A stretch of DNA of 64,000 nt from a virus: UHGV virus genome UHGV-0010228. One strand, given 5' to 3'. The notes under the pieces are model-generated. The model searched no databases. It was not told where the DNA came from and saw nothing but the letters and a program-made list of their open reading frames with translations. A program made the translations under genes and the position numbers. Below are positions 4,004 through 61,194 of this stretch, piece by piece; position 1 is the stretch's first letter; every line of letters starts with the position of its first letter.

Positions 4004-7000
4004 ATGCTATTCGAAAATTATGAAGATTGGAGAGTATATCCACCACAACCGAGGATATATTTCCCTAAAAATTCTTCAAAAAATAAAACTGCAGGATATG
4101 GATCAGCGTTATTTTTATTAACCCCCAAAACTACATCATCTTTCGAATTTATGAAAGATAAAAATGTAGCACTCAGAATGTCTTTATATAAATACTATAT
4201 GATAGAGACGATGTATAAAGAAAAAATTGGTCGAAAAAATGTCATATTAAATATGACTAGACAGATGGAAGCTTTATATAATGAAAATAATGTTGAAAAA
4301 GATACTACAATATCTTATATTCCTAGACCTCAGAAAAAAGCTAGATTAAAATCTGGTAATAATATAATTGTAGATTTATCAATGTGGATGGAATTATATC
4401 TTAAATATACAGTAACTATTCAGAATCCTAAGGAAAAGTGTAGAATATTTATAGATTTATTAGATAAATTGCTTAATGATAGTAATTATAATAATTATGA
4501 AAAATTAGTATGCATAGATATAAATTCATGGACTAATAGAGCGGCAGATTGTGTTATGATGAATCGCGATCTACTCAATAACCCTCTATCAATTTTAATT
4601 TATGCTATGGTTAAATATCCGGATTTATTAAATGGAAAACTTAAAAACTTTAGAATATATCTCGTAAATAGATCTAGTAAGCAGATTTTTCTCTTTAATA
4701 CAAAAGATATTATTAAAGATAATTATAACAAATTTAAGAGTAAGATCAAATTATTCAAGGGTATATCTATATCATCTTCTGAAACTCTTGAGGGCGATAC
4801 CAATATATCAGAAGGTGAAGCCAAGGCTATCGCTATCAATAATTATAAAAATAAAGTATTAAAGTCAATGAAGAGTAATCTCTTAGGTAACAGTAAGAAT
4901 ACTGAAATTCGAGAAATTACTGACGATGATGAATTGATTGATAGTAATGATGATTATGATGAGATCTTCGATGTTACTAAAGAAATAGAAGAAGAATCTG
5001 ATGAAGTAAAACCAACCGATGAAGATTCTAATCTTTTTGATGAAATGGGAGCAGAGTTAGATCTTGATGCTGAAGCTTTGGCTGAATTAGATAATATGAT
5101 TGGTGATATTGATGATGTATCAACTGATGATATATTGAATACTCCAGTAGATGAAGTTGCAGATGATCTTGCTGAACGTGTTAAAAATAATGTATTCATT
5201 GCGGAATTTAAACCTAAGAGGACAAGTGAGCAAGAAGAGCGAAATCGTGAAATGATGGATATTCAGGCAATAGCTCTTAATCAGGAAAATATTGATAATG
5301 CAAAAACCAAGATAATTGATACAACAGATTTTTCAGACTATATCAATTCTTCCAATGTAAATATTCTTAAATCAAAATATGTTAATTTTGATAAAGACTA
5401 TGTTGAAAAGAAAATGGAAGGTGACATAGACAATGCTGTTGCTTGCTTATCTGGAGCGACAGATAAGATATTCATCACCAATAAAGAAGTTATTGATTCT
5501 TCAGACTCTTTAAATCTTAAGAGGACTTTAAAATATTCCCTTGAAGATGAAAAAGGTAATAAAATGACAATAACTTTTGATGTACCTATTATAATTGATA
5601 ACTGCTATATCTATGTAAATGGTAGTAAGAAGTTGATAGGTCATCAGTTTATATTAAAACCTCTAGTAAAAACTGGTCCTGATACTGTTCAGTTAGTAAC
5701 TTCATATAATAAAGTATTTATCACTAGAGATGGCGTTGTAGATTATATATCTTCTAGCATTATAACTTATATGGAGAAGAATCCAGAGAAGTTTAAGTGT
5801 GTTAGGGGTAATTCATCAATTAAGAATAAGAAATATAACACAGCATTAGATTTTACAATGTATGCTAAGTTATTTACTAGATTTACAATTGGTGATGAAG
5901 AATTTATTACCGGCATTGAAGAATTTTATGATAGATACAATAAAAAATATCCAACTAAAAAACTTAAGTTGGATAAAAAGAAAATTGCTGAGAAGTATCC
6001 AATTTCATTTAATAAAAAGACTGGTGAAATAAGATATATGAAATCAACTGAAAGTTTTTCGGATATCTTATTATCAATCATTGATGAAGAAGATAAGAAA
6101 GCAATTAGTAGAATTAAAAAGAAACCTAGACTGGTTTATGTTAGGGCTAAATTAATGGGCCAAATATTCCCAATGGCTCTTCTTTTAATGTATCATGAAG
6201 GATTCGCGTCTATAATGAAACGTGCAGATATTGCTTATCAATTCACAGATAAGAAGTCATATAATAAAATGGATAAAATGAGATATGATTTCTTAGAACT
6301 ATCGGATGGATTAGTCGTCTGGGAACGTAGAAATATGTTAACTTCATTACTCATGAATGGCTTAAAGCGATTAGATTTTACACCTTATACAATAGAAGAG
6401 TTAGAATCTAAGGATACTTATAGGTCATTATTAGTCGACTTATATAATGGGGATAATTCTATTTCATATAAAATAGATCAGTTCTATGATTTTACAATAG
6501 ATTCTATTACTAAGGAGATATTAGAGGATATGAATTATCCTACAAATCTTCCTGATTTATTAATATTAGCAGTTAAGATGTTATGTGATAGCGCATATGC
6601 TCTTGAAAATAATATGAATAATATGAGAATTAGAAGTAATGAGGTAATTCCAGCGATTATTCATAAAGAAATAGCAGATGCATATAACTTATATAGAAAG
6701 ACATCTTATAAGAAGAAACCAGTTAATGTATCTATTAAACCAAATATCATAATTGATAAATTACTATCTGCTGATACCAATCTCATCGAGGAATTTAGTA
6801 CTATAAATCCTGTATTAGAGATAGAAAAAGCTCGTTGTGTAACATTTAAAGGCTATAGAGGTATACAGTTAGATAGAGCGATAACTCTTCCTAGACGTGG
6901 ATATGATCCATCAATGTTAGGAATTATGGGAATTTCAACATCATCAGATGCTAACTGTGGTGTAAATAGACAGATGACATTAGAACCTGCGATTACATCT

Positions 7001-7159
7001 ACAAGAGGATACTTGGAGGTAAATGGTGTTGAAAATGTAAATTCTTTAACAGATGCTAATTTACTATCGCCAGCAGAATTATTAACACCACTCGGTGTTA
7101 TACATGATGACCCCGATAGAACTGCGATCAAAAAAAGCTTGTTAGATGTCGCAGTATAA
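4004..7159 (+). CDS. Multisubunit RNA polymerase beta subunit, N-terminal part (exon 1). The ORF reads through into a group I intron and stops at 7157-7159.
   Basis: RBS 'aaggagg'. C-terminal region 'SDANCGVNRQMTLEP' resembles the conserved bacterial beta motif 'DSNRALMGANMQRQAVPL'. 'YIYVNGSKKLIGHQFILKP' is reminiscent of 'FIINGTERVIVSQL'. Contiguous with the intron and exon 2. Confidence 0.55.
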   Translation: MLFENYEDWRVYPPQPRIYFPKNSSKNKTAGYGSALFLLTPKTTSSFEFMKDKNVALRMSLYKYYMIETMYKEKIGRKNVILNMTRQMEALYNENNVEKDTTISYIPRPQKKARLKSGNNIIVDLSMWMELYLKYTVTIQNPKEKCRIFIDLLDKLLNDSNYNNYEKLVCIDINSWTNRAADCVMMNRDLLNNPLSILIYAMVKYPDLLNGKLKNFRIYLVNRSSKQIFLFNTKDIIKDNYNKFKSKIKLFKGISISSSETLEGDTNISEGEAKAIAINNYKNKVLKSMKSNLLGNSKNTEIREITDDDELIDSNDDYDEIFDVTKEIEEESDEVKPTDEDSNLFDEMGAELDLDAEALAELDNMIGDIDDVSTDDILNTPVDEVADDLAERVKNNVFIAEFKPKRTSEQEERNREMMDIQAIALNQENIDNAKTKIIDTTDFSDYINSSNVNILKSKYVNFDKDYVEKKMEGDIDNAVACLSGATDKIFITNKEVIDSSDSLNLKRTLKYSLEDEKGNKMTITFDVPIIIDNCYIYVNGSKKLIGHQFILKPLVKTGPDTVQLVTSYNKVFITRDGVVDYISSSIITYMEKNPEKFKCVRGNSSIKNKKYNTALDFTMYAKLFTRFTIGDEEFITGIEEFYDRYNKKYPTKKLKLDKKKIAEKYPISFNKKTGEIRYMKSTESFSDILLSIIDEEDKKAISRIKKKPRLVYVRAKLMGQIFPMALLLMYHEGFASIMKRADIAYQFTDKKSYNKMDKMRYDFLELSDGLVVWERRNMLTSLLMNGLKRLDFTPYTIEELESKDTYRSLLVDLYNGDNSISYKIDQFYDFTIDSITKEILEDMNYPTNLPDLLILAVKMLCDSAYALENNMNNMRIRSNEVIPAIIHKEIADAYNLYRKTSYKKKPVNVSIKPNIIIDKLLSADTNLIEEFSTINPVLEIEKARCVTFKGYRGIQLDRAITLPRRGYDPSMLGIMGISTSSDANCGVNRQMTLEPAITSTRGYLEVNGVENVNSLTDANLLSPAELLTPLGVIHDDPDRTAIKKSLLDVAV

Positions 7160-8724: not shown

Positions 8725-8848
8725 ATAAACAAATTATGAATATAAGATATTGTCTAATATCTTATATTCATAATTCTATATAAATTTTATGAATATATTA
8801 TTTTGATGATAATATTATATTTCTTAAACAGTGAAAGGAGAATTAAAA

Positions 8849-9992: not shown

Positions 9993-10493
9993 TGAAAATA
10001 TTTTGATAGATTTTTAAACGATATATTACTCAGATGAATCTTTCGTTTCATAAGAGTTTATATAGAAATATTTCTATATAAACTCTTATTCCTAGTTGTA
10101 TATAAATGAGCTTATATAAATATAAATATTTATATAAGTAGATAGATATTAGAATTTATATATAATCTATATAGAGTTTATAGAGCTTTTATATATAAAT
10201 ATAGTAGATATTATATATATTTATATAAATAGAAAATAAATTATAAATAGTTATGAATTTTATTAAAGAATATTATTTACAGTTATATAAATAAATCTAT
10301 ATAAATAAATCTATATAAATATTTCAATACTCAATAAATATAAAAATACTCTTTAATAAATATATTATATAATAGAATATAAATTATATCCGATATAAAA
10401 ATACCCTACCCTGACGGCATCCGAGCAATATATCTTCGATATAATGTTATGGGGTATTTTTAAGTTTTCAACCCCCGAAAGGAGTCAATTAAA
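9993..10493. repeat. Non-coding AT-rich region with a 38-bp perfect palindrome (10051-10088) and about 8 copies of the 'TATATAAATA' iteron. Candidate origin or regulatory hub.
   Basis: 'taagagtttatatagaaat|atttctatataaactctta' is a perfect inverted repeat. 'ttatataaat' recurs throughout 10100-10330, including the tandem 'aaatctatataaataaatctatataaat'. There is a stem-loop 'aaataccc...gggtattt' at 10401-10456. Confidence 0.6.
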
Positions 10494-13679: not shown

Positions 13680-13763
13680 ACAAAATTCTGGAGAGTTTAA
13701 ACTCTCCAGAAAATAAACTGATAAATCCAAATTATAAAGGTAATATAGAGGAGGACAATACTG

Positions 13764-20258: not shown

Positions 20259-20296
20259 AAATATAGGATATGGAAACTTTCCATATCCTATATTTA

Positions 20297-20698
20297 TTAA
20301 TTATTTTCCTTCATAGCTTTCTTAGCTTCTTTAGCAGCCTTACGTCTAGCAAAGAATCCTCTAAGACCAGTCTTCTTTACTGGTGTTAAATCTTTGCCCT
20401 CTTCCTTAAGTTCTTTAATCCTTTCAGTATCAAGTGGCTTCATTTCAGATTCCTCCTCCTTTTTTTCCATGTTATTTAAATTTTTTATTTTATTCTTTTC
20501 GAGTATGATATGAACTTCATTATATAAAGCACCATCTAATTCCTTAAGACGAACATGCATATCCTTGCTAATCGTTGTTTTAGATACGTTAAATTCCTTA
20601 GATGCTGCAAGCATTGTTGATTTATGATTAACAATCCACTTAGCTTCGTCAATAACCCGCTTATCAATAACTTCACTAAATACAAATTCTTTTTCCAT
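20297..20698 (-). CDS. spoIIID: SpoIIID-like HTH sporulation transcription regulator (stage III sporulation protein D family) with a K/E-rich C-terminal extension
   Basis: 'IDKRVIDEAKWIVNHKSTMLAASKEFNVSKTTISKDMHVRLKELDGALYNEVHIILEKNK' aligns with B. subtilis SpoIIID 'IKERTIKIGKYIVETKKTVRVIAKEFGVSKSTVHKDLTERLPEINPDLANEVKEILDYHK'. This is my recalled sequence, at about 40-45% identity. Confidence 0.7.
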   Translation of the reverse strand: MEKEFVFSEVIDKRVIDEAKWIVNHKSTMLAASKEFNVSKTTISKDMHVRLKELDGALYNEVHIILEKNKIKNLNNMEKKEEESEMKPLDTERIKELKEEGKDLTPVKKTGLRGFFARRKAAKEAKKAMKENN

Positions 20699-20712
20699 GA
20701 AAATTACTCCTC

Positions 20713-21459
20713 CTATTTTAAGAATAGTTTGGTTAATGGTAGAACTATATTTTTATAATTAAATGAAATATCTAAATCATTTAAATCATCTTCAGTTATC
20801 TCATCAATTATCGTAGAATATTCTTCGATCATTAGTCGATATTGAGAATCTGAATTATATTCTCTATAATGATCAAGTATAAGATCTTTATTTTTATAGG
20901 CTTGTAGATACTCTTTTAAATATTTATTTACTGAGTAACCATTATTACCTATTGTTGTAATATCCCTAATAAATCGATTCATACCATTATCATGTAATTT
21001 TATTTTATCATCTGGAAGTCCTTTAACATCAAACGACTTTCCAATATAGAATTCGTATTGTGGAATAAGAAGAAAATGCTTGTATTTATTCTTGGCCACA
21101 AAATTAACTATATTATCTAAAGAATTATACTTTATACTATAATTCTTTACAAATATAGCATCTCTTTTTATAGAGATTATGTTATCTTCAGGAATTTTAT
21201 TCAATTCTATAAAAAGATTAACTGCATCATTAAATCCTCGTTCTAATTTAGAAGCAAAGTCGGGATCTTTTTGCATGATCCCGACTTTTATAACTCGCTT
21301 CTCTTTTGATAAATTGGCCAATTTATCAATATCTTTATCAGGTAATAAGTTATAATATTTCATTATAGAAGTATTACCTGATTTGATATCCCATTCGACT
21401 ATTTCAGAATTTAATATAAGAGGATTATTCTTATTTGTCCTGAACATTAGTCTGACCAA
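20713..21459 (-). CDS. Hypothetical protein
   Basis: 248 aa. First gene of a tightly packed minus-strand operon that runs to 24195. Confidence 0.5.
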   Translation of the reverse strand: MVRLMFRTNKNNPLILNSEIVEWDIKSGNTSIMKYYNLLPDKDIDKLANLSKEKRVIKVGIMQKDPDFASKLERGFNDAVNLFIELNKIPEDNIISIKRDAIFVKNYSIKYNSLDNIVNFVAKNKYKHFLLIPQYEFYIGKSFDVKGLPDDKIKLHDNGMNRFIRDITTIGNNGYSVNKYLKEYLQAYKNKDLILDHYREYNSDSQYRLMIEEYSTIIDEITEDDLNDLDISFNYKNIVLPLTKLFLK

Positions 21460-22157
21460 AGAAAACGATCAAGATCGTCAGTAAGCCCAAACGAATACTC
21501 ATCTTTGTGCTTTTTCTTCTTATCTTTCTTTTTCTTTTTCTTATCCATCTTATCATCTTCATCATGATGTTTATCCTTTTTATCTTTATCTTTTTTACCT
21601 TTAGATACTTTATCTTCTAAGTCAGATATTCTATTGGATACCTTATTTAAATCTTCCTTAGAAAGCTTCTTTCCTAAAATTTTCTTATTCTCTTTAAGTA
21701 CGTCTTCCATATATATAAACTGTGGAAGATTCTTAAATAATTTTTTATATTCATTTAAGAATCTTATTCCCATAGCTTTATATACTTTATTAGGTAATAC
21801 TATAAATACATTAATTTCAGGAATTGGTTTGTTTGCATTAGATAATGCAAACATTGTTTTTACCGCCTTAATCATTGAAGCTTTAACTCTACGATTATCA
21901 AAATAATCATCAATTATATCTTCAACCTTATCAGGATCATAATCGTCGTCGTCATCATCTTCTGTTAAGATTTTAATTAATTTTCTAGGCGGTGTAAAAT
22001 TCCCATCTGAAGTGCAATGGCTAAATGTATCACTAATTGTTTTAGCTGTAGATACTGAAGATCCTGTATCTTCTCCATCTATTATGAAATAATCATAATC
22101 TGGAAGGATCTTCTTCGCCATCTTTTCAAAACTCTTTTTCTTACAAATATAAATCAT
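21447..22157 (-). CDS. Hypothetical protein with a lysine/aspartate-rich C-terminal tail
   Basis: 'KDKDKKDKHHDEDDKMDKKKKKKDKKKKHKDE'. Confidence 0.5.
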   Translation of the reverse strand: MIYICKKKSFEKMAKKILPDYDYFIIDGEDTGSSVSTAKTISDTFSHCTSDGNFTPPRKLIKILTEDDDDDDYDPDKVEDIIDDYFDNRRVKASMIKAVKTMFALSNANKPIPEINVFIVLPNKVYKAMGIRFLNEYKKLFKNLPQFIYMEDVLKENKKILGKKLSKEDLNKVSNRISDLEDKVSKGKKDKDKKDKHHDEDDKMDKKKKKKDKKKKHKDEYSFGLTDDLDRFLWSD

Positions 22158-22158
22158 A

Positions 22159-22965
22159 CTATTTACCTCCTATAGTACTTTCAATATTAATTAAATCTGG
22201 AAGCTTGAAACCATTTAACATTTCCATAGTTTCCATCTCTAACTTATCATAATGATTTGCCATTTTCTGAATTATTCTATGTGGCGGAACTTGCAATCTA
22301 CATTTTGGGTTATTACATTCAAAACGTGTATAATTTCTATCCCATTCCAATTTAGCACCACATCTTGGGCATCTAAATAATTCAGTTTTATTTTCTAATG
22401 TTAATGGATATAAATATCCATAATCAAGAATACGAATTTCATCACCTTCAGGTGTTTCAATATATCCATAATTAGCAGAATTTTTTACTGTAAATCCAAT
22501 ATCATCAAATATAAACGCTGACGATATTTGTGATAACATATCTTTGATTACTGGCTCATTATATATAAATTGCTCCTGATCCATAACATTTACATACTGT
22601 TGACATAATATTAACATATTAGTCTCATATGATTTTGCTAAGAATCTAGGCATTTCTGCTGATCGTTTAAATTCCGTAAAATTATCAACGATCCCTCGTC
22701 TATCAAGAGCGACTTTAAATACAAAATTATTTTTCAGTAATCCAATTCTATTAGTACCAGTACCTAATTCATCAAATCCATATGGTTCACATATATATTT
22801 TATAATTTCTGCTCTAGCATTATTATCCATTATATCAACTGATAATGCCTGATAAAATAATGCTTTTAATATCTCATCAGGGAAATATTCCTTGATGAGA
22901 CTTTCTGGCACCTCTTTCTCGACAGTTTTATTAAAATCAAGATCGAGGTTTGGTAATTTAAACAT
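22159..22965 (-). CDS. Hypothetical protein with a C-terminal C4 zinc ribbon
   Basis: 'CPRCGAKLEWDRNYTRFECNNPKC'. Confidence 0.5.
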   Translation of the reverse strand: MFKLPNLDLDFNKTVEKEVPESLIKEYFPDEILKALFYQALSVDIMDNNARAEIIKYICEPYGFDELGTGTNRIGLLKNNFVFKVALDRRGIVDNFTEFKRSAEMPRFLAKSYETNMLILCQQYVNVMDQEQFIYNEPVIKDMLSQISSAFIFDDIGFTVKNSANYGYIETPEGDEIRILDYGYLYPLTLENKTELFRCPRCGAKLEWDRNYTRFECNNPKCRLQVPPHRIIQKMANHYDKLEMETMEMLNGFKLPDLINIESTIGGK

Positions 22966-22977
22966 TATAAATCTCCT

Positions 22978-24195
22978 TTAATATCCTAAATCCAAATCAG
23001 AATCTGCACTCATTCCATAATCATATTCACCAATTTCATAATCATCGATATCTATATCTGATAATCTGAATGACATTTCACCATTACGGAAGAATGACCT
23101 TCGATGACCATTTAGTACGTTCATGATACGACTATCTGATTCAAATTCTTCTTTGGCTCGTTTCTTGGCTTTCTTCTGACGCTTTTTAAGTTTCTTCCTC
23201 TCTTTCTTAGTCATTGGTGTTACTCCACATTCTGCACCAATCTTCTGACGAAGCATTTTAGCACCAGATTTACCAAGATCCTTCATCTGATCTCCAATAT
23301 CAAGGCCACATTTATACATATATGTGGCAACTTCAATCTTATCGATATCAGACTGACGGACTAATCTACCATTCATTACTTGAACCGTATCCATAGCTTC
23401 AAGTCTAGCTATTTCACTTTCTGTCATACCATCATATTTATGCATTTCTTCATAAATTGCAATAATTGAATCTGGATCTTCAGTTTCGCGTCCTTTCTGA
23501 TCAAATCGAATTGGTTTATTAGAATTGATGAAATCAATGATAGCATCAGTATCTGCCATACCAGAATATTTAAGATAAATATTCTTCTTCCTCTTCTTTC
23601 TTTCCTGCCGTCTATATTCATATTCCATTTCTTCTGGAACATAATCCATATCAAATACTTCATCAGGAAGATCTAATACTGCAGGATCTACAGGATGTGT
23701 TTCAGCATAACGCTTCATCACAAATCCTTTCATTTTATTAAAGAATCTATCATCATCTCTCCATACTGGAATTGGAGAATTTAATAACTTCTTATTCTTC
23801 TTCTTCATCTTTAATTTAGGTTCTGGTGGAATATATATATCTAATACACCTCCATCAACTAAAGATTCAACAAAGTCCAGAGGACCATACATATCTGTAA
23901 TCTTTGCAATATATTCATCGTATATATCAATAGCATCAGCCCAATCAAAATAGTCACCATATTTGCGACGAATTGTGCGAGCTTCACTATCATCAATTGA
24001 AGATGTTGATACTGATCTTGTCAAATAATCGTCATCTTCAAAGTTGTTATGTTGAACACTTAACACGAAATCTGGGAGCTCAATCAAATCTGTTTTTGCG
24101 AGCTTCATTATCTGCCTAGCTCTTTCGTGTAAATCTTCAATATCATAATCATCTGGATTAGCAACATCCATAGGATTATCTATCATATCAAACAT
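22978..24195 (-). CDS. Hypothetical protein with several highly basic K/R tracts
   Basis: 'RRQERKKRKKN' and 'KKERKKLKKRQKKAKKRAKEE'. Possible nucleic-acid-binding or virion-internal protein. Confidence 0.5.
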   Translation of the reverse strand: MFDMIDNPMDVANPDDYDIEDLHERARQIMKLAKTDLIELPDFVLSVQHNNFEDDDYLTRSVSTSSIDDSEARTIRRKYGDYFDWADAIDIYDEYIAKITDMYGPLDFVESLVDGGVLDIYIPPEPKLKMKKKNKKLLNSPIPVWRDDDRFFNKMKGFVMKRYAETHPVDPAVLDLPDEVFDMDYVPEEMEYEYRRQERKKRKKNIYLKYSGMADTDAIIDFINSNKPIRFDQKGRETEDPDSIIAIYEEMHKYDGMTESEIARLEAMDTVQVMNGRLVRQSDIDKIEVATYMYKCGLDIGDQMKDLGKSGAKMLRQKIGAECGVTPMTKKERKKLKKRQKKAKKRAKEEFESDSRIMNVLNGHRRSFFRNGEMSFRLSDIDIDDYEIGEYDYGMSADSDLDLGY

Positions 24196-24331
24196 TTAGA
24201 CCTAACCTCCTATATAATATTTTATTCCCATTCTTCATTGTAATAATATATTAGCAAAAAATAAACTTAAGAATTGATAAGGATAGGAGCTAGTAGCGTT
24301 TAACTACTAGCTCCCTATCGGAGAATAAATA

Positions 24332-24595: not shown

Positions 24596-24674
24596 TTTTA
24601 TGTCCTCCTTTATAAGTACTTATAAGATGTATTTTATCACATTAATAATATATCAATAAAATTAATATCTATTT

Positions 24675-25157: not shown

Positions 25158-25246
25158 TATATCAACTCCTTTCATATTTTTAATATATTAGTTTATAATA
25201 TAAATAGAGATACATATTTGTATCTCTATTTATAAATTTATAATTA

Positions 25247-25948
25247 TTATTCACTTTTATCTTTCATACTCATTGCATTTTTCCATTCTTCTGGAATTTC
25301 AGGTAAATTTACACCTTCAATATTAACATATACGAATTCTGTGTCTAGTACATCTGATAATATATCTGGGCACTTAAGACTTAATTCAACCTTAGCTTCA
25401 AGTTTTTCTATCACTTTAGGATCCATATATTCTTCATATTCATTAAAGAATCTATCATATGAATGATATATTTTCTGCAATGGAATAAATATCTTATCTG
25501 CATGGACTAAATCGTGCATAGTTTTAGATAGTGGGACCAAACCAACTTTACCCTCATAGTGCAATTCTTCAACTTCATCGGCTACTGTAAAATGATTCAG
25601 TGGAATACCTAAAGCTTCATATTTATTAACTACTGTTTGTACTATATCAAATAATGTAAATGGTTCATGATGTATCTCTATTCTATATCTTCTACCATTA
25701 GAAGTTGATAATCCTTTTAATACCTCACAGCGATTCATATCTAAATTATTTTTTAAGAATTTTATATGATCTCGATATTCATCGGATCGTCTAATCATCA
25801 TTTCTACATCTTTAATAAATCTAACTTTATCCTTAGTTTTATTAAATACTATAACCGGGCGTTCTAATTTCTCATCTAATGATATATTAATAGAAGATTC
25901 TGGTCTTTCTCTCTTAGTGTTTGCTAATGCACTACGATATAATATCAT
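25247..25948 (-). CDS. HNH / His-Me-finger-like motif protein (paralog B)
   Basis: 'IEIHHEPFTLFDI ... HDLVHAD' parallels 17235-17879. Confidence 0.5.
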   Translation of the reverse strand: MILYRSALANTKRERPESSINISLDEKLERPVIVFNKTKDKVRFIKDVEMMIRRSDEYRDHIKFLKNNLDMNRCEVLKGLSTSNGRRYRIEIHHEPFTLFDIVQTVVNKYEALGIPLNHFTVADEVEELHYEGKVGLVPLSKTMHDLVHADKIFIPLQKIYHSYDRFFNEYEEYMDPKVIEKLEAKVELSLKCPDILSDVLDTEFVYVNIEGVNLPEIPEEWKNAMSMKDKSE

Positions 25949-36397: not shown

Positions 36398-36650
36398 AAA
36401 CTCCTCTTTCTTATTATTTTTGTATTTATCATAAGACAATATATTATTAATATGTAAGTATACTAACACTTATATTAAAATTATATTGATTTATAGAAAG
36501 GAGATAATACTATGAGTATAGCAAATCAGACAAGTGGAGGAGCAAATTATCAGAATTCAAGTAGTGCAAATGATTTTAAATCTATAAAATTGAATCAAAC
36601 AAGTGCAATACATAATGAAACTATGAATTTCTCAGTTAAGGAGGAATTAA

Positions 36651-43437: not shown

Positions 43438-45474
43438 ATGAACAAATCAAGTTTATATGAAGACATTTATTCATCTACTAATATTATTAATGGTGATGAG
43501 TATCGTGAAATGATAACTACTATAGCAAATTTGGCTTCAGATATGGTAGTTAAGACATTAGGACCATATGGTGCTACAACAATCATTGATGATGGTAGTG
43601 GATATACATATCCTACTAAGGATGGTTGGTCAACATTAAATAGACTTAGATTTAATGATCCTATATATAATACATTATTTAATGTATTAAAACAGATTAG
43701 TTTTAATTCTGTAAGTACAGTTGGTGATGGTACAACAACTGCAATGGTTGGGGCTAGTCACTTCTTAAAGAATTTTGATGAGTATGAAAAACCAACTAAT
43801 TTTAGACAGGCAGACTTTATAGCAGCTATGAATAAAGTATCTGATGATATTGAGCATAGAATGCTCAATAGTTCTAGAGTTAAAGTTATTAACTCTGATA
43901 ATATTTCAGATGCTATATTCCCTATAGCATATACGGCAACTAACGGTAATGCCGAATTTGCAAATATTATTCAGGATATATATACACAGACTGAAAATCC
44001 TAATATTCATGTAGAAATGTCTAAAGGAGATAAGATATCGTATGTGATACAAGATGGATATAAATTTGATTCATCTGTATTAGATTTCAATGTATATATA
44101 AATGAAGACAATGGTACATACAAAAAAGACACTGTTACTAAGTGCGTGATATTTGATCATAACATCACATATCAGCAGCATAAGAATATTGTATTAGAAT
44201 TAACGAGATATGCTCAGACACATTCAACTGAAATAATAATAATGGCGCCATACTTTGATGATATTATTACAACTATGATATCTAATCAGATACAGCAGTT
44301 ATCTATGAAAGGTATGATTCCTAATATTATACTCATGCAGGTTCCTATTACAATGGATATCCATAAGCAAATACTTTCAGATATTTCTGTACTTATTAAT
44401 GCACCAATATTTGATACTGCAAGATTAAAGTTATTTAATATTCTTTATCACAATCAGACACATGATAAGGAAGAACAGATTGAAGATGATATTCTAGAAA
44501 TGGATCTTTTCAAAGAAAATAATCCTTCAGAATTATTATTTGCTTGCTTAGGTACTATAAGATCTATAGTAATTGATAAGAAGAATTCATATATTAAGAA
44601 TTATGATTCGATTATTGACCCTGTAAAGTATAATGCATTAATTAAGGATGCTACCGATAGATATCTTAAACTCAAAGAAGACGCCGATAAGACATTTAAT
44701 GGTCATCTTGATAAAGATTATATGTTTGCTAGAATGAGATATATAAAGCTTACTGGTAAGATGGGTACAATATATGTAGGTGGATTATCTGAATTACAGA
44801 AGAGATGTGATAAAGATGCTATTGACGATGCAGTTATGGTTTGTAAGTCAGCATATGAGCATGGTTATGTTAGAGGATTAACTCTCGAACTTATAACTTG
44901 CATTGCTGAAGCAATGACTGATATTAATGAAAATAATATAGAGATATCTGATTATGAAGCAATGGCATATAATTTATTATATAGAACTTTCTTAGATGTA
45001 TCACTTGATTGCCTTAAGAATAAATATGGTGATAGTGAAGTTGTATATGTTAAGGACTTACATGAGGATCCATCTAATGATGAATATCAGACAATAAGAA
45101 TTCAGGATATTGTACCATATTGTGCAGAGCATGATGCTGGATTTAATCTAGTTACCGATACAATTACAGATATTGAAACTACATCAGTTGTATCTTCGGT
45201 TGCCACTGATTTAGAGATTATGAAGGCAGTTATCAATATTCTTACAACTATTATAACATCTAACCAGTTCTTATCTATGGGTAAATCATATGATAGAAAG
45301 GTTAGTCATGATAGGGAATTAGACAGACTTGTTAGTGATAAGAGAGCAATCGCTCGTGCTCAGGCAGAAGAAGTAACCAATGTGCTTAAGACAAATGTGC
45401 TCGGTGACAAAGTTTTTTCACTTTTAAATCTTCCACAGAAAGCTGAGCAGATATCTATGAATTTAGAAGATTAA
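43438..45474 (+). CDS. GroEL-like phage chaperonin (678 aa)
   Basis: 'VKTLGPYGATTIID...PTKDGWSTLNRLRFNDP...VGDGTTTAMVGA' aligns with GroEL 'VKVTLGPKGRNVVL...ITKDGVSVAREIELEDK...AGDGTTTATVLA'. RBS 'aaaggag'. Terminator at 45483-45520. Confidence 0.8.
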   Translation: MNKSSLYEDIYSSTNIINGDEYREMITTIANLASDMVVKTLGPYGATTIIDDGSGYTYPTKDGWSTLNRLRFNDPIYNTLFNVLKQISFNSVSTVGDGTTTAMVGASHFLKNFDEYEKPTNFRQADFIAAMNKVSDDIEHRMLNSSRVKVINSDNISDAIFPIAYTATNGNAEFANIIQDIYTQTENPNIHVEMSKGDKISYVIQDGYKFDSSVLDFNVYINEDNGTYKKDTVTKCVIFDHNITYQQHKNIVLELTRYAQTHSTEIIIMAPYFDDIITTMISNQIQQLSMKGMIPNIILMQVPITMDIHKQILSDISVLINAPIFDTARLKLFNILYHNQTHDKEEQIEDDILEMDLFKENNPSELLFACLGTIRSIVIDKKNSYIKNYDSIIDPVKYNALIKDATDRYLKLKEDADKTFNGHLDKDYMFARMRYIKLTGKMGTIYVGGLSELQKRCDKDAIDDAVMVCKSAYEHGYVRGLTLELITCIAEAMTDINENNIEISDYEAMAYNLLYRTFLDVSLDCLKNKYGDSEVVYVKDLHEDPSNDEYQTIRIQDIVPYCAEHDAGFNLVTDTITDIETTSVVSSVATDLEIMKAVINILTTIITSNQFLSMGKSYDRKVSHDRELDRLVSDKRAIARAQAEEVTNVLKTNVLGDKVFSLLNLPQKAEQISMNLED

Positions 45475-61029: not shown

Positions 61030-61194
61030 TGTATAATTACCTCCTTTTAGGATTTTATTCATATTAAACACTTATTATCATAAATTTATTGTATTTGTTT
61101 ATATTGGTGTTAATTAAATTCCTGCAACTTCGATAATTATAAATAAAAAATATGAAATATATATTATTAAATTGAACTGAGAAGGAGGATTACA

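What the first reader, a model, noticed from the sequence alone, without database searches (positions are those of the whole stretch)
20297..20698. Phage-encoded homolog of the sporulation mother-cell transcription factor SpoIIID
About 60 residues match the SpoIIID HTH domain at roughly 40-45% identity. The conserved recognition helix is 'SKEFNVSKTTISKDM', against host 'AKEFGVSKSTVHKDL'. A 60-aa K/E-rich tail follows that is absent from host SpoIIID.

In Bacillus, SpoIIID controls the switch from sigmaE to sigmaK in the mother cell. A lytic jumbo phage carrying its own copy could be manipulating host sporulation to avoid entrapment in spores or to time lysis. It could equally have repurposed the HTH for phage gene regulation.

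The gene sits at the promoter-distal end of a minus-strand operon (24195 down to 20297) that carries an upstream early-promoter-like motif.
Basis: partly seen in the sequence, partly recalled or inferred. Interest (0 to 1): 0.7.

Follow-up and report, generated by a model that had tools for sequence, protein, structure and literature searches.

The report
SpoIIID-like regulator in gut jumbo phage
An uncultured human-gut giant phage carries an early-expressed, remodelled copy of the DNA-binding core of the bacterial sporulation regulator SpoIIID; this is a real and conserved gene, but phage copies of spoIIID were already known and its target is still untested.

Summary
ORF 20297-20698 (-) encodes a 133-aa protein. 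Residues 9-72 match Pfam SpoIIID (57.5 bits, cutoff 27). SpoIIID (PDB 2L0K) is the only significant fold match, with about 43% identity over 60 residues.

It is not a SpoIIID equivalent. It scores 52.7 against the 111.5-bit NCBIfam cutoff. It lacks the C-terminal basic extension (RHxRGGxATKxKY) and has Leu in place of a near-invariant Arg. Instead it has an indel-prone acidic linker and a lineage-specific basic C-terminal helix. That helix is under purifying selection (dN/dS 0.05-0.19).

The phage is a roughly 224-kb uncultured human-gut relative of AR9/PBS1 and uses both AR9 promoter classes. The gene ends a five-gene unit bounded by two hairpin terminators and driven by an AR9-type early promoter. 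In AR9 and LPJP1 the homologous unit ends one gene earlier, so the gene is an add-on.

Phage spoIIID homologs are already known (phi3626 ORF42, PHROG 11726, Schwartz 2023), and those keep the extension. Most likely function (inferred): an early DNA-binding regulator that mimics or competes with host SpoIIID. SpoIIID boxes are not enriched in the phage DNA. The host is unknown.

Verdict: new variant of a known kind, moderate interest.

The parts
20297..20698 (-). SpoIIID-like gene, 133 aa plus stop codon
   Evidence: ORF list and sequence. Pfam PF12116 57.5 bits. Identical or near-identical protein on at least 7 metagenome contigs. Overall dN/dS 0.10-0.16 against diverged orthologs.
20483..20674 (-). 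SpoIIID-type helix-turn-helix domain (aa 9-72)
   Evidence: Pfam match aa 9-71 to profile positions 2-64 of 82. 2L0K alignment aa 10-78. AF2 pLDDT 98 for aa 11-70, with helices 4-25, 29-36, 40-54 and 56-85. Foldseek top hit 2L0K, prob 1.0. dN/dS 0.07-0.13.
20537..20581 (-). Predicted recognition helix (aa 40-54, KTTISKDMHVRLKEL)
   Evidence: AF2 helix 40-54. It aligns to the B. subtilis SKSTVHKDLTERL segment. Family-invariant S39, K40, D46 and L51 are retained.
20444..20476 (-). Acidic, indel-prone linker (aa 75-85). It replaces the canonical RHxRGGxATKxKY extension.
   Evidence: Alignment with orthologs shows a 2-aa and a 14-aa insertion here. dN/dS 0.5-1.0 in two of three pairs. The canonical extension is absent.
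20300..20443 (-). Lineage-specific conserved C-terminal module (aa 86-133), ending in a basic helix (aa 112-132)
   Evidence: Nearly invariant among orthologs. dN/dS 0.05-0.19. AF2 helix 112-132 with pLDDT 93-96. Net charge of aa 101-133 is +8. Apart from the close relative P0003, none of the 150 best hits among 1.84 billion representatives matches it. No paralog in the window.
20709..20714 (-). Ribosome-binding site AGGAGG
   Evidence: Read from the sequence. AGGAGG-type words are the most enriched intergenic k-mers in the window.
20259..20295 (.). 17-bp hairpin between the convergent genes, a likely bidirectional terminator that ends the operon
   Evidence: Terminator scan and sequence.
20713..21447 (-). 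Operon gene 4 (244 aa from the ATG; PHROG 21037), a homolog of AR9 gp238
   Evidence: PHROG hit 1.1e-29. tblastn hits to AR9, LPJP1, Staphylococcus jumbo phages and phiR1-37. In AR9 and LPJP1 the homolog is the last gene of its unit.
21447..22157 (-). Operon gene 3 (236 aa, D/E- and K-rich, no family match)
   Evidence: Its stop overlaps the start of gene 4 by one base.
22159..22965 (-). Operon gene 2 (268 aa, weak zinc-ribbon and PHROG 4301 matches)
22978..24195 (-). Operon gene 1 (405 aa, no family match, K-rich tracts)
24236..24251 (-). AR9-type early (virion RNA polymerase) promoter motif ATATATTAT-TACAAT-G, 41 nt upstream of the first ATG
   Evidence: Motif 15 copies vs 2.6 +/- 1.7 expected. 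14 of 15 copies are intergenic, most within about 200 nt upstream of a same-strand gene. AR9 early consensus AAATATATATTAT-(6N)-G (PMC5312081).
24282..24319 (-). Hairpin followed by a T-run, the terminator of the preceding 87-aa gene. It marks the upstream boundary of the operon.
   Evidence: Read from the sequence.

Best explanation
**Shown**
- The gene encodes a sequence-specific DNA-binding protein whose N-terminal 70 residues are a SpoIIID-family helix-turn-helix domain.
- The canonical C-terminal basic extension of SpoIIID is gone. In its place are a flexible acidic linker and a lineage-specific basic helix, and both ordered modules are under purifying selection.
- The gene is the last cistron of a five-gene unit in a roughly 224-kb human-gut AR9/PBS1-like jumbo phage. 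The unit sits behind an AR9-type early promoter and carries no late-type motif.
- In AR9 and LPJP1 the homologous unit ends one gene earlier, so this gene is an added accessory gene.

**Inferred**
- The protein is made within minutes of infection by the injected virion RNA polymerase.
- Its recognition helix is close to SpoIIID's (SKTTISKD vs SKSTVHKD), so it probably recognises SpoIIID-box-like sites.
- Those sites are not enriched in the phage's own DNA, and SpoIIID is otherwise a gene of endospore-formers. The most likely targets are therefore SpoIIID-controlled promoters on the chromosome of a spore-forming Firmicute host.
- There it would act as a mimic or competitor of host SpoIIID and perturb the mother-cell sigmaE-to-sigmaK programme.
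- The basic C-terminal helix is proposed to supply the extra DNA contact, or a partner contact, that the lost extension provides in SpoIIID.
- The direction of the effect (blocking or promoting spore completion) cannot be predicted.
For: - **Family:** Pfam PF12116 57.5 bits vs cutoff 27, with other HTH families at 16 bits or less. PHROG 11726 'sporulation stage III protein D', E 2.3e-15. 2L0K by sequence, E 1.2e-8. 2L0K by fold as the only significant hit. Confident AF2 model.
- **Conserved residues:** R14, S39, K40, D46, L51, L58 and V62 are retained.
- **Selection:** dN/dS is 0.07-0.13 for the HTH and 0.05-0.19 for the C-module, at dS 0.5-1.6. Gene order (244-aa gene, SpoIIID-like gene, convergent 129-130-aa gene) is conserved in diverged relatives.
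- **Early class:** The promoter motif is strongly enriched and copies are correctly placed and match the AR9 consensus. There is no late-type motif in front of the operon or the gene. The AR9 homolog of the upstream gene lies in an annotated early unit.
- **Accessory status:** No counterpart in AR9, LPJP1 or any GenBank phage.
- **Host-directed rather than self-directed:** SpoIIID-box patterns are below expectation in the window, 7 vs 14.7 +/- 3.5 and 38 vs 54.5 +/- 7.1.
- **Host transcription continues:** In AR9 infection host mRNAs fall only about 2-fold, so host transcription remains available to be modulated (PMC5312081).
- **Precedent:** spoIIID is among the genes enriched in phages of spore-formers, many from the human gut (PMC10294663). 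The near-identical contigs include a Hadza gut sample.
Against: - No binding site, target gene or host is known.
- The host could not be identified. There was no match in GTDB genomes, IMG/VR or GenBank phages.
- The closest cultured relatives by RNA polymerase beta infect non-spore-formers (Listeria, Staphylococcus) as well as Bacillus.
- One of SpoIIID's two DNA-binding determinants is missing. A near-invariant Arg is Leu, and the recognition-helix His is Ser. Affinity and specificity may therefore differ from SpoIIID.
- Only 64 kb of about 224 kb of phage DNA could be scanned for sites, and the box patterns are degenerate.
- No other sporulation-family gene was found in the window.
- SpoIIID acts late, in the mother cell. 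The regulator would matter only in cells infected around the time of sporulation.
Confidence: 0.4

Rival explanations
1. The SpoIIID-type HTH has been repurposed as a regulator of the phage's own transcription. For example, it could shut off early (virion RNA polymerase) promoters or tune middle genes by binding phage DNA with an altered specificity. In that case it has nothing to do with sporulation.
For: - It is expressed from an early promoter in a phage that runs its own two RNA polymerases.
- The recognition surface is altered (Arg to Leu, His to Ser) and the C-terminus is replaced, which fits a new specificity.
- Jumbo phages commonly carry HTH repressors thought to regulate their own programmes (PMC7824862).
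- The closest cultured relatives include phages of non-spore-formers.
Against: - Canonical SpoIIID-box patterns are depleted, not enriched, in the window.
- Apart from the two promoter classes, ribosome-binding sites and terminator palindromes, no other recurrent intergenic motif was found that could serve as an operator.
- AR9, LPJP1 and the other relatives lack the gene, so it is not part of the conserved regulatory core.
Confidence: 0.3
2. It regulates host genes unrelated to sporulation, or acts as a general DNA-binding or nucleoid-associated early protein. The HTH plus the basic tail would give low-specificity binding that helps host takeover.
For: - Loss of the specificity- and affinity-enhancing extension, and gain of a +8 basic tail.
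- The operon partners also carry K-rich tracts.
- It belongs to the early expression class.
Against: - Family-invariant recognition-helix residues are kept under strong purifying selection. That argues for sequence-specific recognition.
- K-rich tracts are expected by composition in a 29% GC genome.
Confidence: 0.15
3. The match is only a generic helix-turn-helix resemblance, or the ORF is not a functional gene.
For: The match covers only about 60 residues, and the score is far below the NCBIfam equivalog cutoff.
Against: - The Pfam score is twice the gathering threshold, and other HTH families are below their thresholds.
- The fold search returns SpoIIID alone.
- There are 309 family representatives at E <= 1e-3.
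- dN/dS is about 0.1, with conserved synteny, a ribosome-binding site and a terminator.
Confidence: 0.02

Closest known systems
SpoIIID of Bacillus subtilis and other endospore-formers (PF12116, TIGR02844; PDB 2L0K)
   Same: - The same HTH fold and family. Identity is about 43% over 60 residues (40% over 88 columns).
- The S-K-x-T-x-x-K-D recognition helix and most invariant residues are conserved.
   Different: - It lacks the C-terminal basic extension RHxRGGxATKxKY, the second DNA-binding determinant (PMC3789822).
- The near-invariant Arg is Leu.
- It has 60 extra residues: an acidic linker and a basic helix.
- It is encoded by a phage behind a virion-RNA-polymerase early promoter rather than a sigmaE promoter.
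- It scores 52.7 bits against 154 for B. subtilis on TIGR02844.
SpoIIID homologs of cultured phages of spore-formers: Clostridium phages phi3626 (ORF42) and vB_CpeS-CP51, Bacillus phage vB_BceM-HSE3; PHROG 11726
   Same: - All are phage-borne members of the same family, and the window protein matches PHROG 11726.
- All are proposed, without experiments, to affect sporulation.
   Different: - Those proteins are 90-100 aa. They cover the whole SpoIIID profile including the extension, at 76-106 bits.
- They sit in 33-124-kb phages that depend on the host polymerase. phi3626 and CP51 carry integrase or recombinase genes.
- The window protein keeps only the HTH core, has a new tail, and sits in an AR9-like jumbo phage with its own RNA polymerases. 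tblastn with it finds none of them at E <= 1e-3.
Other phage-carried sporulation regulators: truncated Spo0A (DNA-binding domain only) and sigF/sigG-like sigma factors (Schwartz et al. 2023, PMC10294663)
   Same: - The same logic applies: a phage keeps the DNA-binding or promoter-recognition part of a host sporulation regulator and drops the part that ties it to host control.
- Phage sigF/G-like factors reduced spore yield when expressed in B. subtilis (as cited in PMC10294663).
   Different: - It is a different protein family.
- Here the part removed is a DNA-binding extension rather than a signal-receiver domain.
- There are no experimental data for any phage SpoIIID homolog.
Tandem-array SpoIIID-like proteins from metagenomes (P0005-P0009, P0061; one named SpoIIID in an Oscillospiraceae MAG)
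   Same: - These are the next-best matches after the one close relative P0003 in the exhaustive search.
- They also consist of HTH cores without the RGG-type extension.
- P0008 lies on 219-235-kb contigs.
   Different: - They have 2-6 HTH copies per protein and no acidic-linker or basic-helix tail.
- Their biology is unknown.

Membership tests
SpoIIID family (Pfam PF12116) | Sequence match to the family profile above the curated gathering score | tested here: met
   57.5 bits vs 27; aa 9-71 on profile positions 2-64 of 82.
SpoIIID family (Pfam PF12116) | SpoIIID-type helical HTH fold | tested here: met
   AF2 model pLDDT 88, and 98 over aa 11-70. Foldseek against the PDB: 2L0K is the only significant hit, prob 1.0, TM 0.64 normalised to the target.
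SpoIIID proper (NCBIfam TIGR02844 equivalog) | Score at or above the equivalog cutoff over the full-length profile | tested here: not met
   52.7 bits vs 111.5; profile positions 3-64 of 80 only. B. subtilis SpoIIID scores 154 over 1-80.
SpoIIID proper | C-terminal basic region or helical extension (RHxRGGxATKxKY) that, with the HTH, lets a monomer bind DNA | tested here: not met
   Absent in alignments. The tail scores 0.8 bits against a profile of 68 canonical extensions, and 34 of 500 shuffles score as high. The role of this region comes from the PMC3789822 Fig. S3 legend citing Himes 2010, and from my own knowledge of Chen et al. 2014.
SpoIIID proper | Family-invariant residues of the HTH | tested here: inconclusive
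   R14, S39, K40, D46, L51, L58 and V62 are retained. The near-invariant Arg (B. subtilis R24) is Leu30, and the recognition-helix His is Ser44.
SpoIIID proper | Binds SpoIIID boxes and controls sigmaE/sigmaK-dependent mother-cell genes | not testable with these tools
   Needs EMSA, ChIP or reporter assays.
SpoIIID proper | Chromosomal gene of an endospore-forming Firmicute, transcribed in the mother cell | tested here: not met
   The gene is encoded in a jumbo-phage genome behind an AR9-type early promoter.
Phage-encoded SpoIIID homologs (PHROG 11726) | Match to the PHROG profile; phage-borne | tested here: met
   E 2.3e-15, aa 7-72 on profile positions 7-72 of 89. The phage context is established.
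Phage-encoded SpoIIID homologs (PHROG 11726) | Full-length architecture as in phi3626, CP51 and HSE3 (HTH plus extension, 90-100 aa) | tested here: not met
   Those cover TIGR02844 positions 4-79. The window protein stops at position 64 and carries a different 60-aa tail.
Phage-encoded SpoIIID homologs (PHROG 11726) | Host is an endospore-former | not testable with these tools
   The host is unknown. The sample origin is human gut. No match in GTDB genomes.
AR9/PBS1-like jumbo phages (genomic context) | Genome over 200 kb, multisubunit RNA polymerase, AR9-type early and late promoter motifs | tested here: met
   223,545-bp contig. RNA polymerase beta is closest to LPJP1, Staphylococcus S6/PALS_2 and Goe21, at about 30% identity. 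Early motif 15 vs 2.6 expected. Late-like motif upstream of 15 of 57 genes vs 3.6% background, clustered at -32 to -41.
AR9/PBS1-like jumbo phages (genomic context) | Uracil-containing DNA | not testable with these tools
   This would need the whole genome (absence of thymidylate synthase and dUTPase) or chemical analysis.

The most novel reading that the evidence does not exclude
The protein could be a purpose-built SpoIIID antagonist or mimic used by a virulent or pseudolysogenic jumbo phage.

- It keeps SpoIIID's site recognition but has swapped the affinity-giving extension for a new basic helix.
- It would be made immediately after infection by the injected polymerase.
- It would occupy SpoIIID boxes on the host chromosome and rewire the sigmaE-to-sigmaK switch. 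That would either stop spore completion so the mother cell keeps producing phage, or drive it so the phage genome is carried in the spore.
- If the phage DNA contains uracil like AR9's, an HTH that reads thymine methyl groups would ignore the phage genome. That would explain why no sites are seen there.
- This would be the first mechanistic handle on sporulation control by a jumbo phage. It would also be a candidate type of gene for the classical, still unexplained 'spore-converting' phages PMB12 and SP10.
Probability: 0.2. Interest if true: 0.7.

Novelty: new variant of a known kind. Interest (0 to 1): 0.4.

Why it matters
- **Known catalogue, no experiments.** Phage-carried sporulation regulators are a recognised but almost entirely untested class. 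Only phage sigma factors have been tested.
- **A natural domain-swap experiment.** This variant keeps the SpoIIID recognition core, loses the second DNA-binding element, and gains a new conserved tail. It sits in a phage that does not need host RNA polymerase for its own genes. A host-directed regulator here would be a clean case of an auxiliary regulatory gene.
- **Possible biological reach.** If it acts on sporulation, it bears on how gut phages shape spore formation and transmission of gut Clostridia. It also bears on the old unexplained phenomenon of phage-enhanced sporulation.
- **If it acts on phage promoters instead.** It would then be one of the few candidate transcription regulators for AR9-like phages.
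- **Either way it is testable.** The protein is only 133 aa.

Tried and rejected
1. **Known-phage identity.** Megablast of 3 kb and tblastn of the protein against 50,697 GenBank phages gave no match. The lineage is also absent from IMG/VR and from GTDB species genomes, so no host could be assigned.
3. **Tail as a displaced canonical extension.** The idea was that the basic tail (TGLRGFFARRK...) is the SpoIIID extension displaced by an insertion. A profile of 68 extensions gave 0.8 bits and 34 of 500 shuffles scored as high, so this is not supported.
4. **C-terminal helix as a membrane-targeting amphipathic helix.** The hydrophobic moment is 0.35 and 21% of shuffles are higher, so this is not supported.
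5. **Tail as a tag shared by other proteins of the phage.** No paralog of the tail or of the HTH exists in any window ORF.
6. **SpoIIID boxes as phage operators.** The patterns are depleted rather than enriched.
7. **Search for another operator-like intergenic motif.** Only ribosome-binding sites, T-runs and palindromic terminator stems such as AGAGTTTA turned up.
8. **Insertion point from both flanks.** The convergent 129-aa ORF is not detectably homologous to AR9 gp239 or to the LPJP1 neighbour. Only the left flank anchors the synteny.
9. **Other sporulation genes.** A Pfam sweep of 38 further ORFs found no sigma factors or sporulation families.
10. **SpoIIID biochemistry and structure papers.** Himes 2010 and Chen 2014 are not held in the library. 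Sample accessions gave no literature hit.
Full report
**1. The observation**

It starts at ATG 20698, is preceded by AGGAGG at 20709-20714, and ends at TAA. The quoted peptide and its B. subtilis counterpart are both correct. BLASTP against B. subtilis SpoIIID gives 40% identity over 88 columns. Over the first 60 aligned columns it is 26/60, about 43%. The 60-residue tail contains 13 Lys and 11 Glu.

**2. Is it SpoIIID-specific?**

Yes, for the domain.
- Pfam PF12116 scores 57.5 bits against a gathering score of 27. It covers aa 9-71 on profile positions 2-64 of 82. All other HTH families fall below their cutoffs.
- PHROG 11726, 'sporulation stage III protein D', matches at 2.3e-15.
- The solved SpoIIID structure 2L0K is found by sequence at E 1.2e-8.
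- An AlphaFold2 model has mean pLDDT 88, and 98 over aa 11-70. In a Foldseek search of the PDB, 2L0K is the only significant hit, with probability 1.0. The next hit has E about 1.
- An exhaustive HMMER search of 1.84 billion representatives finds 309 family members at E <= 1e-3.

**3. It is not an equivalent of SpoIIID**

It fails the NCBIfam equivalog model TIGR02844, scoring 52.7 bits against a cutoff of 111.5 and matching profile positions 3-64 of 80.

| Protein | TIGR02844 bits | Profile positions |
|---|---|---|
| B. subtilis SpoIIID | 154 | 1-80 |
| Phage CP51 homolog | 106 | 4-78 |
| Phage phi3626 homolog | 84 | 4-77 |
| Phage HSE3 homolog | 76 | 5-79 |
| Window protein | 52.7 | 3-64 |

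(Scores; architecture.)

- **The missing part.** What is absent is the C-terminal extension RHxRGGxATKxKY. It follows the HTH directly in canonical proteins.
[quoted passage not shown] S3 legend citing Himes et al. 2010). From my own knowledge of Chen et al. 2014, it forms a helical extension proposed to lie in the adjacent minor groove and to explain high-affinity binding by a monomer.
- **Other changes.** A nearly invariant Arg of the first HTH helix (B. subtilis R24) is Leu30. The recognition-helix His is Ser44. The other invariant residues (R14, S39, K40, D46, L51, L58, V62) are kept.
- **Placement in the family.** In a domain-distance analysis the protein sits on a long branch. It is roughly equidistant from many canonical SpoIIIDs, and only its own orthologs are close.

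**4. The tail**

Alignment with orthologs of 76-99% identity splits the tail into two parts.
- **Linker (aa 75-85).** It is acidic and prone to indels, with insertions of 2 and 14 aa in the orthologs.
- **C-module (aa 86-133).** It is almost invariant: EMKPLDTERIKELKEEGKDLTPVKKTGLRGFFARRKAAKEAKKA.

Codon-level comparison with two diverged loci (dS 0.5-1.6) gives these dN/dS values:

| Region | dN/dS |
|---|---|
| HTH | 0.07-0.13 |
| C-module | 0.05-0.19 |
| Linker | about 0.5-1.0 in two of three pairs |

Further properties of the tail:
- AF2 predicts a confident helix at aa 112-132.
- Residues 101-133 carry a net charge of +8, and the stretch before them -4.
- The tail is not a displaced copy of the canonical extension. 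It scores 0.8 bits, and 34 of 500 shuffles do as well.
- It is not significantly amphipathic.
- It has no paralog in the window.
- Apart from the close relative P0003, none of the 150 best hits of the exhaustive search matches it.

It is therefore a functional, lineage-specific module of unknown role. The simplest proposal is an extra DNA contact or a partner contact that compensates for the lost extension.

**5. Genomic context**

- **The phage.** The window has 29% GC. It encodes a multisubunit RNA polymerase beta, topoisomerase II, a GroEL-like protein and a DNA polymerase. The RNA polymerase beta is closest, at about 30% identity, to Listeria phage LPJP1, the Staphylococcus S6/PALS_2 group and B. 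subtilis Goe21, which is the AR9/PBS1-like group.
- **Origin.** Near-identical copies of the gene lie on a 223,545-bp contig and on a contig from a Hadza human-gut metagenome. Nothing similar exists in GenBank phages, IMG/VR or GTDB genomes.
- **Early promoters.** The AR9 early consensus is AAATATATATTAT-(6N)-G (PMC5312081). Its core ATATATTAT-N6-G occurs 15 times in the window against 2.6 +/- 1.7 expected. Fourteen copies are intergenic, most within about 200 nt upstream of a same-strand gene.
- **Late promoters.** The AR9 late motif AACA-N6-T(A/G) lies upstream of 15 of 57 genes, against 3.6% of coding 120-mers. Nine copies cluster at -32 to -41 from the start codon.
- **The operon.** The SpoIIID-like gene is the last of five tightly packed genes (24195 to 20297). 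The unit is bounded by hairpin terminators at 24282-24319 and 20259-20295. An early motif sits at 24236-24251, 41 nt upstream of the first ATG. No late-type motif precedes the operon or the gene. It is therefore predicted to be an early gene transcribed by the injected virion polymerase.
- **Evidence of acquisition.** The upstream neighbour (PHROG 21037) is homologous to AR9 gp238. In AR9, gp238 closes an annotated early unit and is followed by a convergent gene. LPJP1 has the same layout. The SpoIIID-like gene is thus an extra cistron appended to a conserved early unit. The right flank is not conserved.

**6. What it probably does**

Shown: a conserved, early-class, phage-specific DNA-binding protein with a SpoIIID-type recognition domain.

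Inferred: it recognises SpoIIID-box-like DNA.
- Two published box patterns, KRTAACARK for C. difficile (PMC5025042) and WWRRACARNY for B. subtilis (from my own knowledge), are below expectation in the window. The counts are 7 vs 14.7 +/- 3.5 and 38 vs 54.5 +/- 7.1.
- No other operator-like intergenic motif was found.
- Accessory status, the family's link to endospore-formers, the gut origin and the precedent of phage-borne sporulation regulators (PMC10294663) also point toward the host.

My best reading (confidence 0.4) is a host-directed mimic or competitor of SpoIIID that perturbs the mother-cell sigmaE-to-sigmaK programme.

The main rival (0.3) is a repurposed regulator of phage transcription with changed specificity. 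A less specific host-takeover DNA-binding role is possible (0.15). 'Generic HTH or non-gene' is refuted.

The weak points are as follows:
- The host is unknown.
- The DNA-binding surface is altered.
- Only 64 of about 224 kb could be scanned for sites.
- No other sporulation gene was found in the window.

**7. Novelty**

Phage spoIIID homologs are not new.
- phi3626 ORF42 is annotated 'similar to sporulation specific transcriptional regulator SpoIIID'. From my own knowledge, Zimmer et al. 2002 proposed an effect on sporulation.
- CP51 and HSE3 carry annotated copies.
- PHROG 11726 exists.
- Schwartz et al. 2023 list spoIIID among regulators enriched in phages of spore-formers.
- None has been tested experimentally (PMC12713726).

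What is new here:
- The architecture: the HTH core only, plus a novel conserved tail.
- The carrier: an AR9-like jumbo phage with its own polymerases. Neither my searches of GenBank phages nor a comparative survey of 224 jumbo phages turned up a SpoIIID homolog in that group.

Classical spore-converting Bacillus phages PMB12 and SP10 enhance sporulation through unknown genes (PMC4124054). Genes of this kind are candidates for such effects.

**8. Verdict**

This is a new variant of a known kind, with interest 0.4.

Noticed in passing
P0005-P0009, P0016, P0017, P0061 (metagenome proteins); L006 10001-11800: 17 of the 150 best family hits carry 2-6 tandem SpoIIID-like HTH domains without the canonical extension. 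One (P0006/MDR0919985.1) is named SpoIIID in an Oscillospiraceae MAG. P0008 (599 aa) lies on 219-235-kb contigs within a long same-strand run of small unknown ORFs, which may be another jumbo phage or a large mobile element.
   Followed up: partly
window, 15 sites (e.g. 2434-2449, 8793-8808, 24236-24251, 24638-24653, 36439-36454, 61159-61174): An AR9-type early promoter motif ATATATTAT-N6-G is strongly over-represented, 15 copies vs 2.6 expected. Fourteen copies are intergenic, most within about 200 nt upstream of a same-strand gene, including the topoisomerase II and DNA polymerase genes.
   Followed up: yes
window, upstream of genes starting at 4004, 17235, 18888, 26703, 26792, 30117, 53784, 59151, 61071 and others: The AR9 late-promoter motif AACA-N6-T(A/G) lies upstream of 15 of 57 genes, against 3.6% of coding 120-mers. 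Nine copies cluster at -32 to -41 from the start codon. The set does not overlap the early set. In AR9 this motif is read on a uracil-containing template strand, which hints that this phage may also have uracil DNA (PMC9209446 abstract).
   Followed up: partly
window 1-64000: SpoIIID-box-like patterns are under-represented by about 2.2-2.3 standard deviations relative to dinucleotide shuffles (7 vs 14.7; 38 vs 54.5). This could be site avoidance or just a codon or composition effect.
   Followed up: no
window 21447-22157 and 22978-24195 (minus strand): Two operon partners have long Lys-rich and Asp/Glu-rich low-complexity tracts (e.g. KKKKKKDKKKKHKD; KKERKKLKKRQKKAKKRAKEE) and no family match. 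The 268-aa gene between them (22159-22965) has a weak CxxC...CxxC zinc-ribbon signal.
   Followed up: no
window 20259-20295, 25199-25234, 10053-10086, 13692-13705, 24282-24319: Long perfect AT-rich hairpins sit between genes, several of them between convergent genes. They look like bidirectional terminators, and they account for the enriched intergenic word AGAGTTTA.
   Followed up: partly
window 43438-45474 (+); 4004-7159 (+); one further ORF among the 38 scanned: The phage encodes a 678-aa GroEL-like chaperonin (PHROG 5725) and a 1051-aa RNA polymerase beta-like protein. A second ORF also matches RNA_pol_Rpb2_6, which fits the two split multisubunit polymerases of AR9-like phages. A Hol44-type holin and a large beta-propeller protein are also present. 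Which ORFs carry the last three matches was not determined.
   Followed up: no
window 25247-25948 (-): A 233-aa protein with a strong match to PHROG 12252 (E 4.7e-51, unknown function) lies just upstream of the operon region. It is a conserved phage protein with no assigned role.
   Followed up: no
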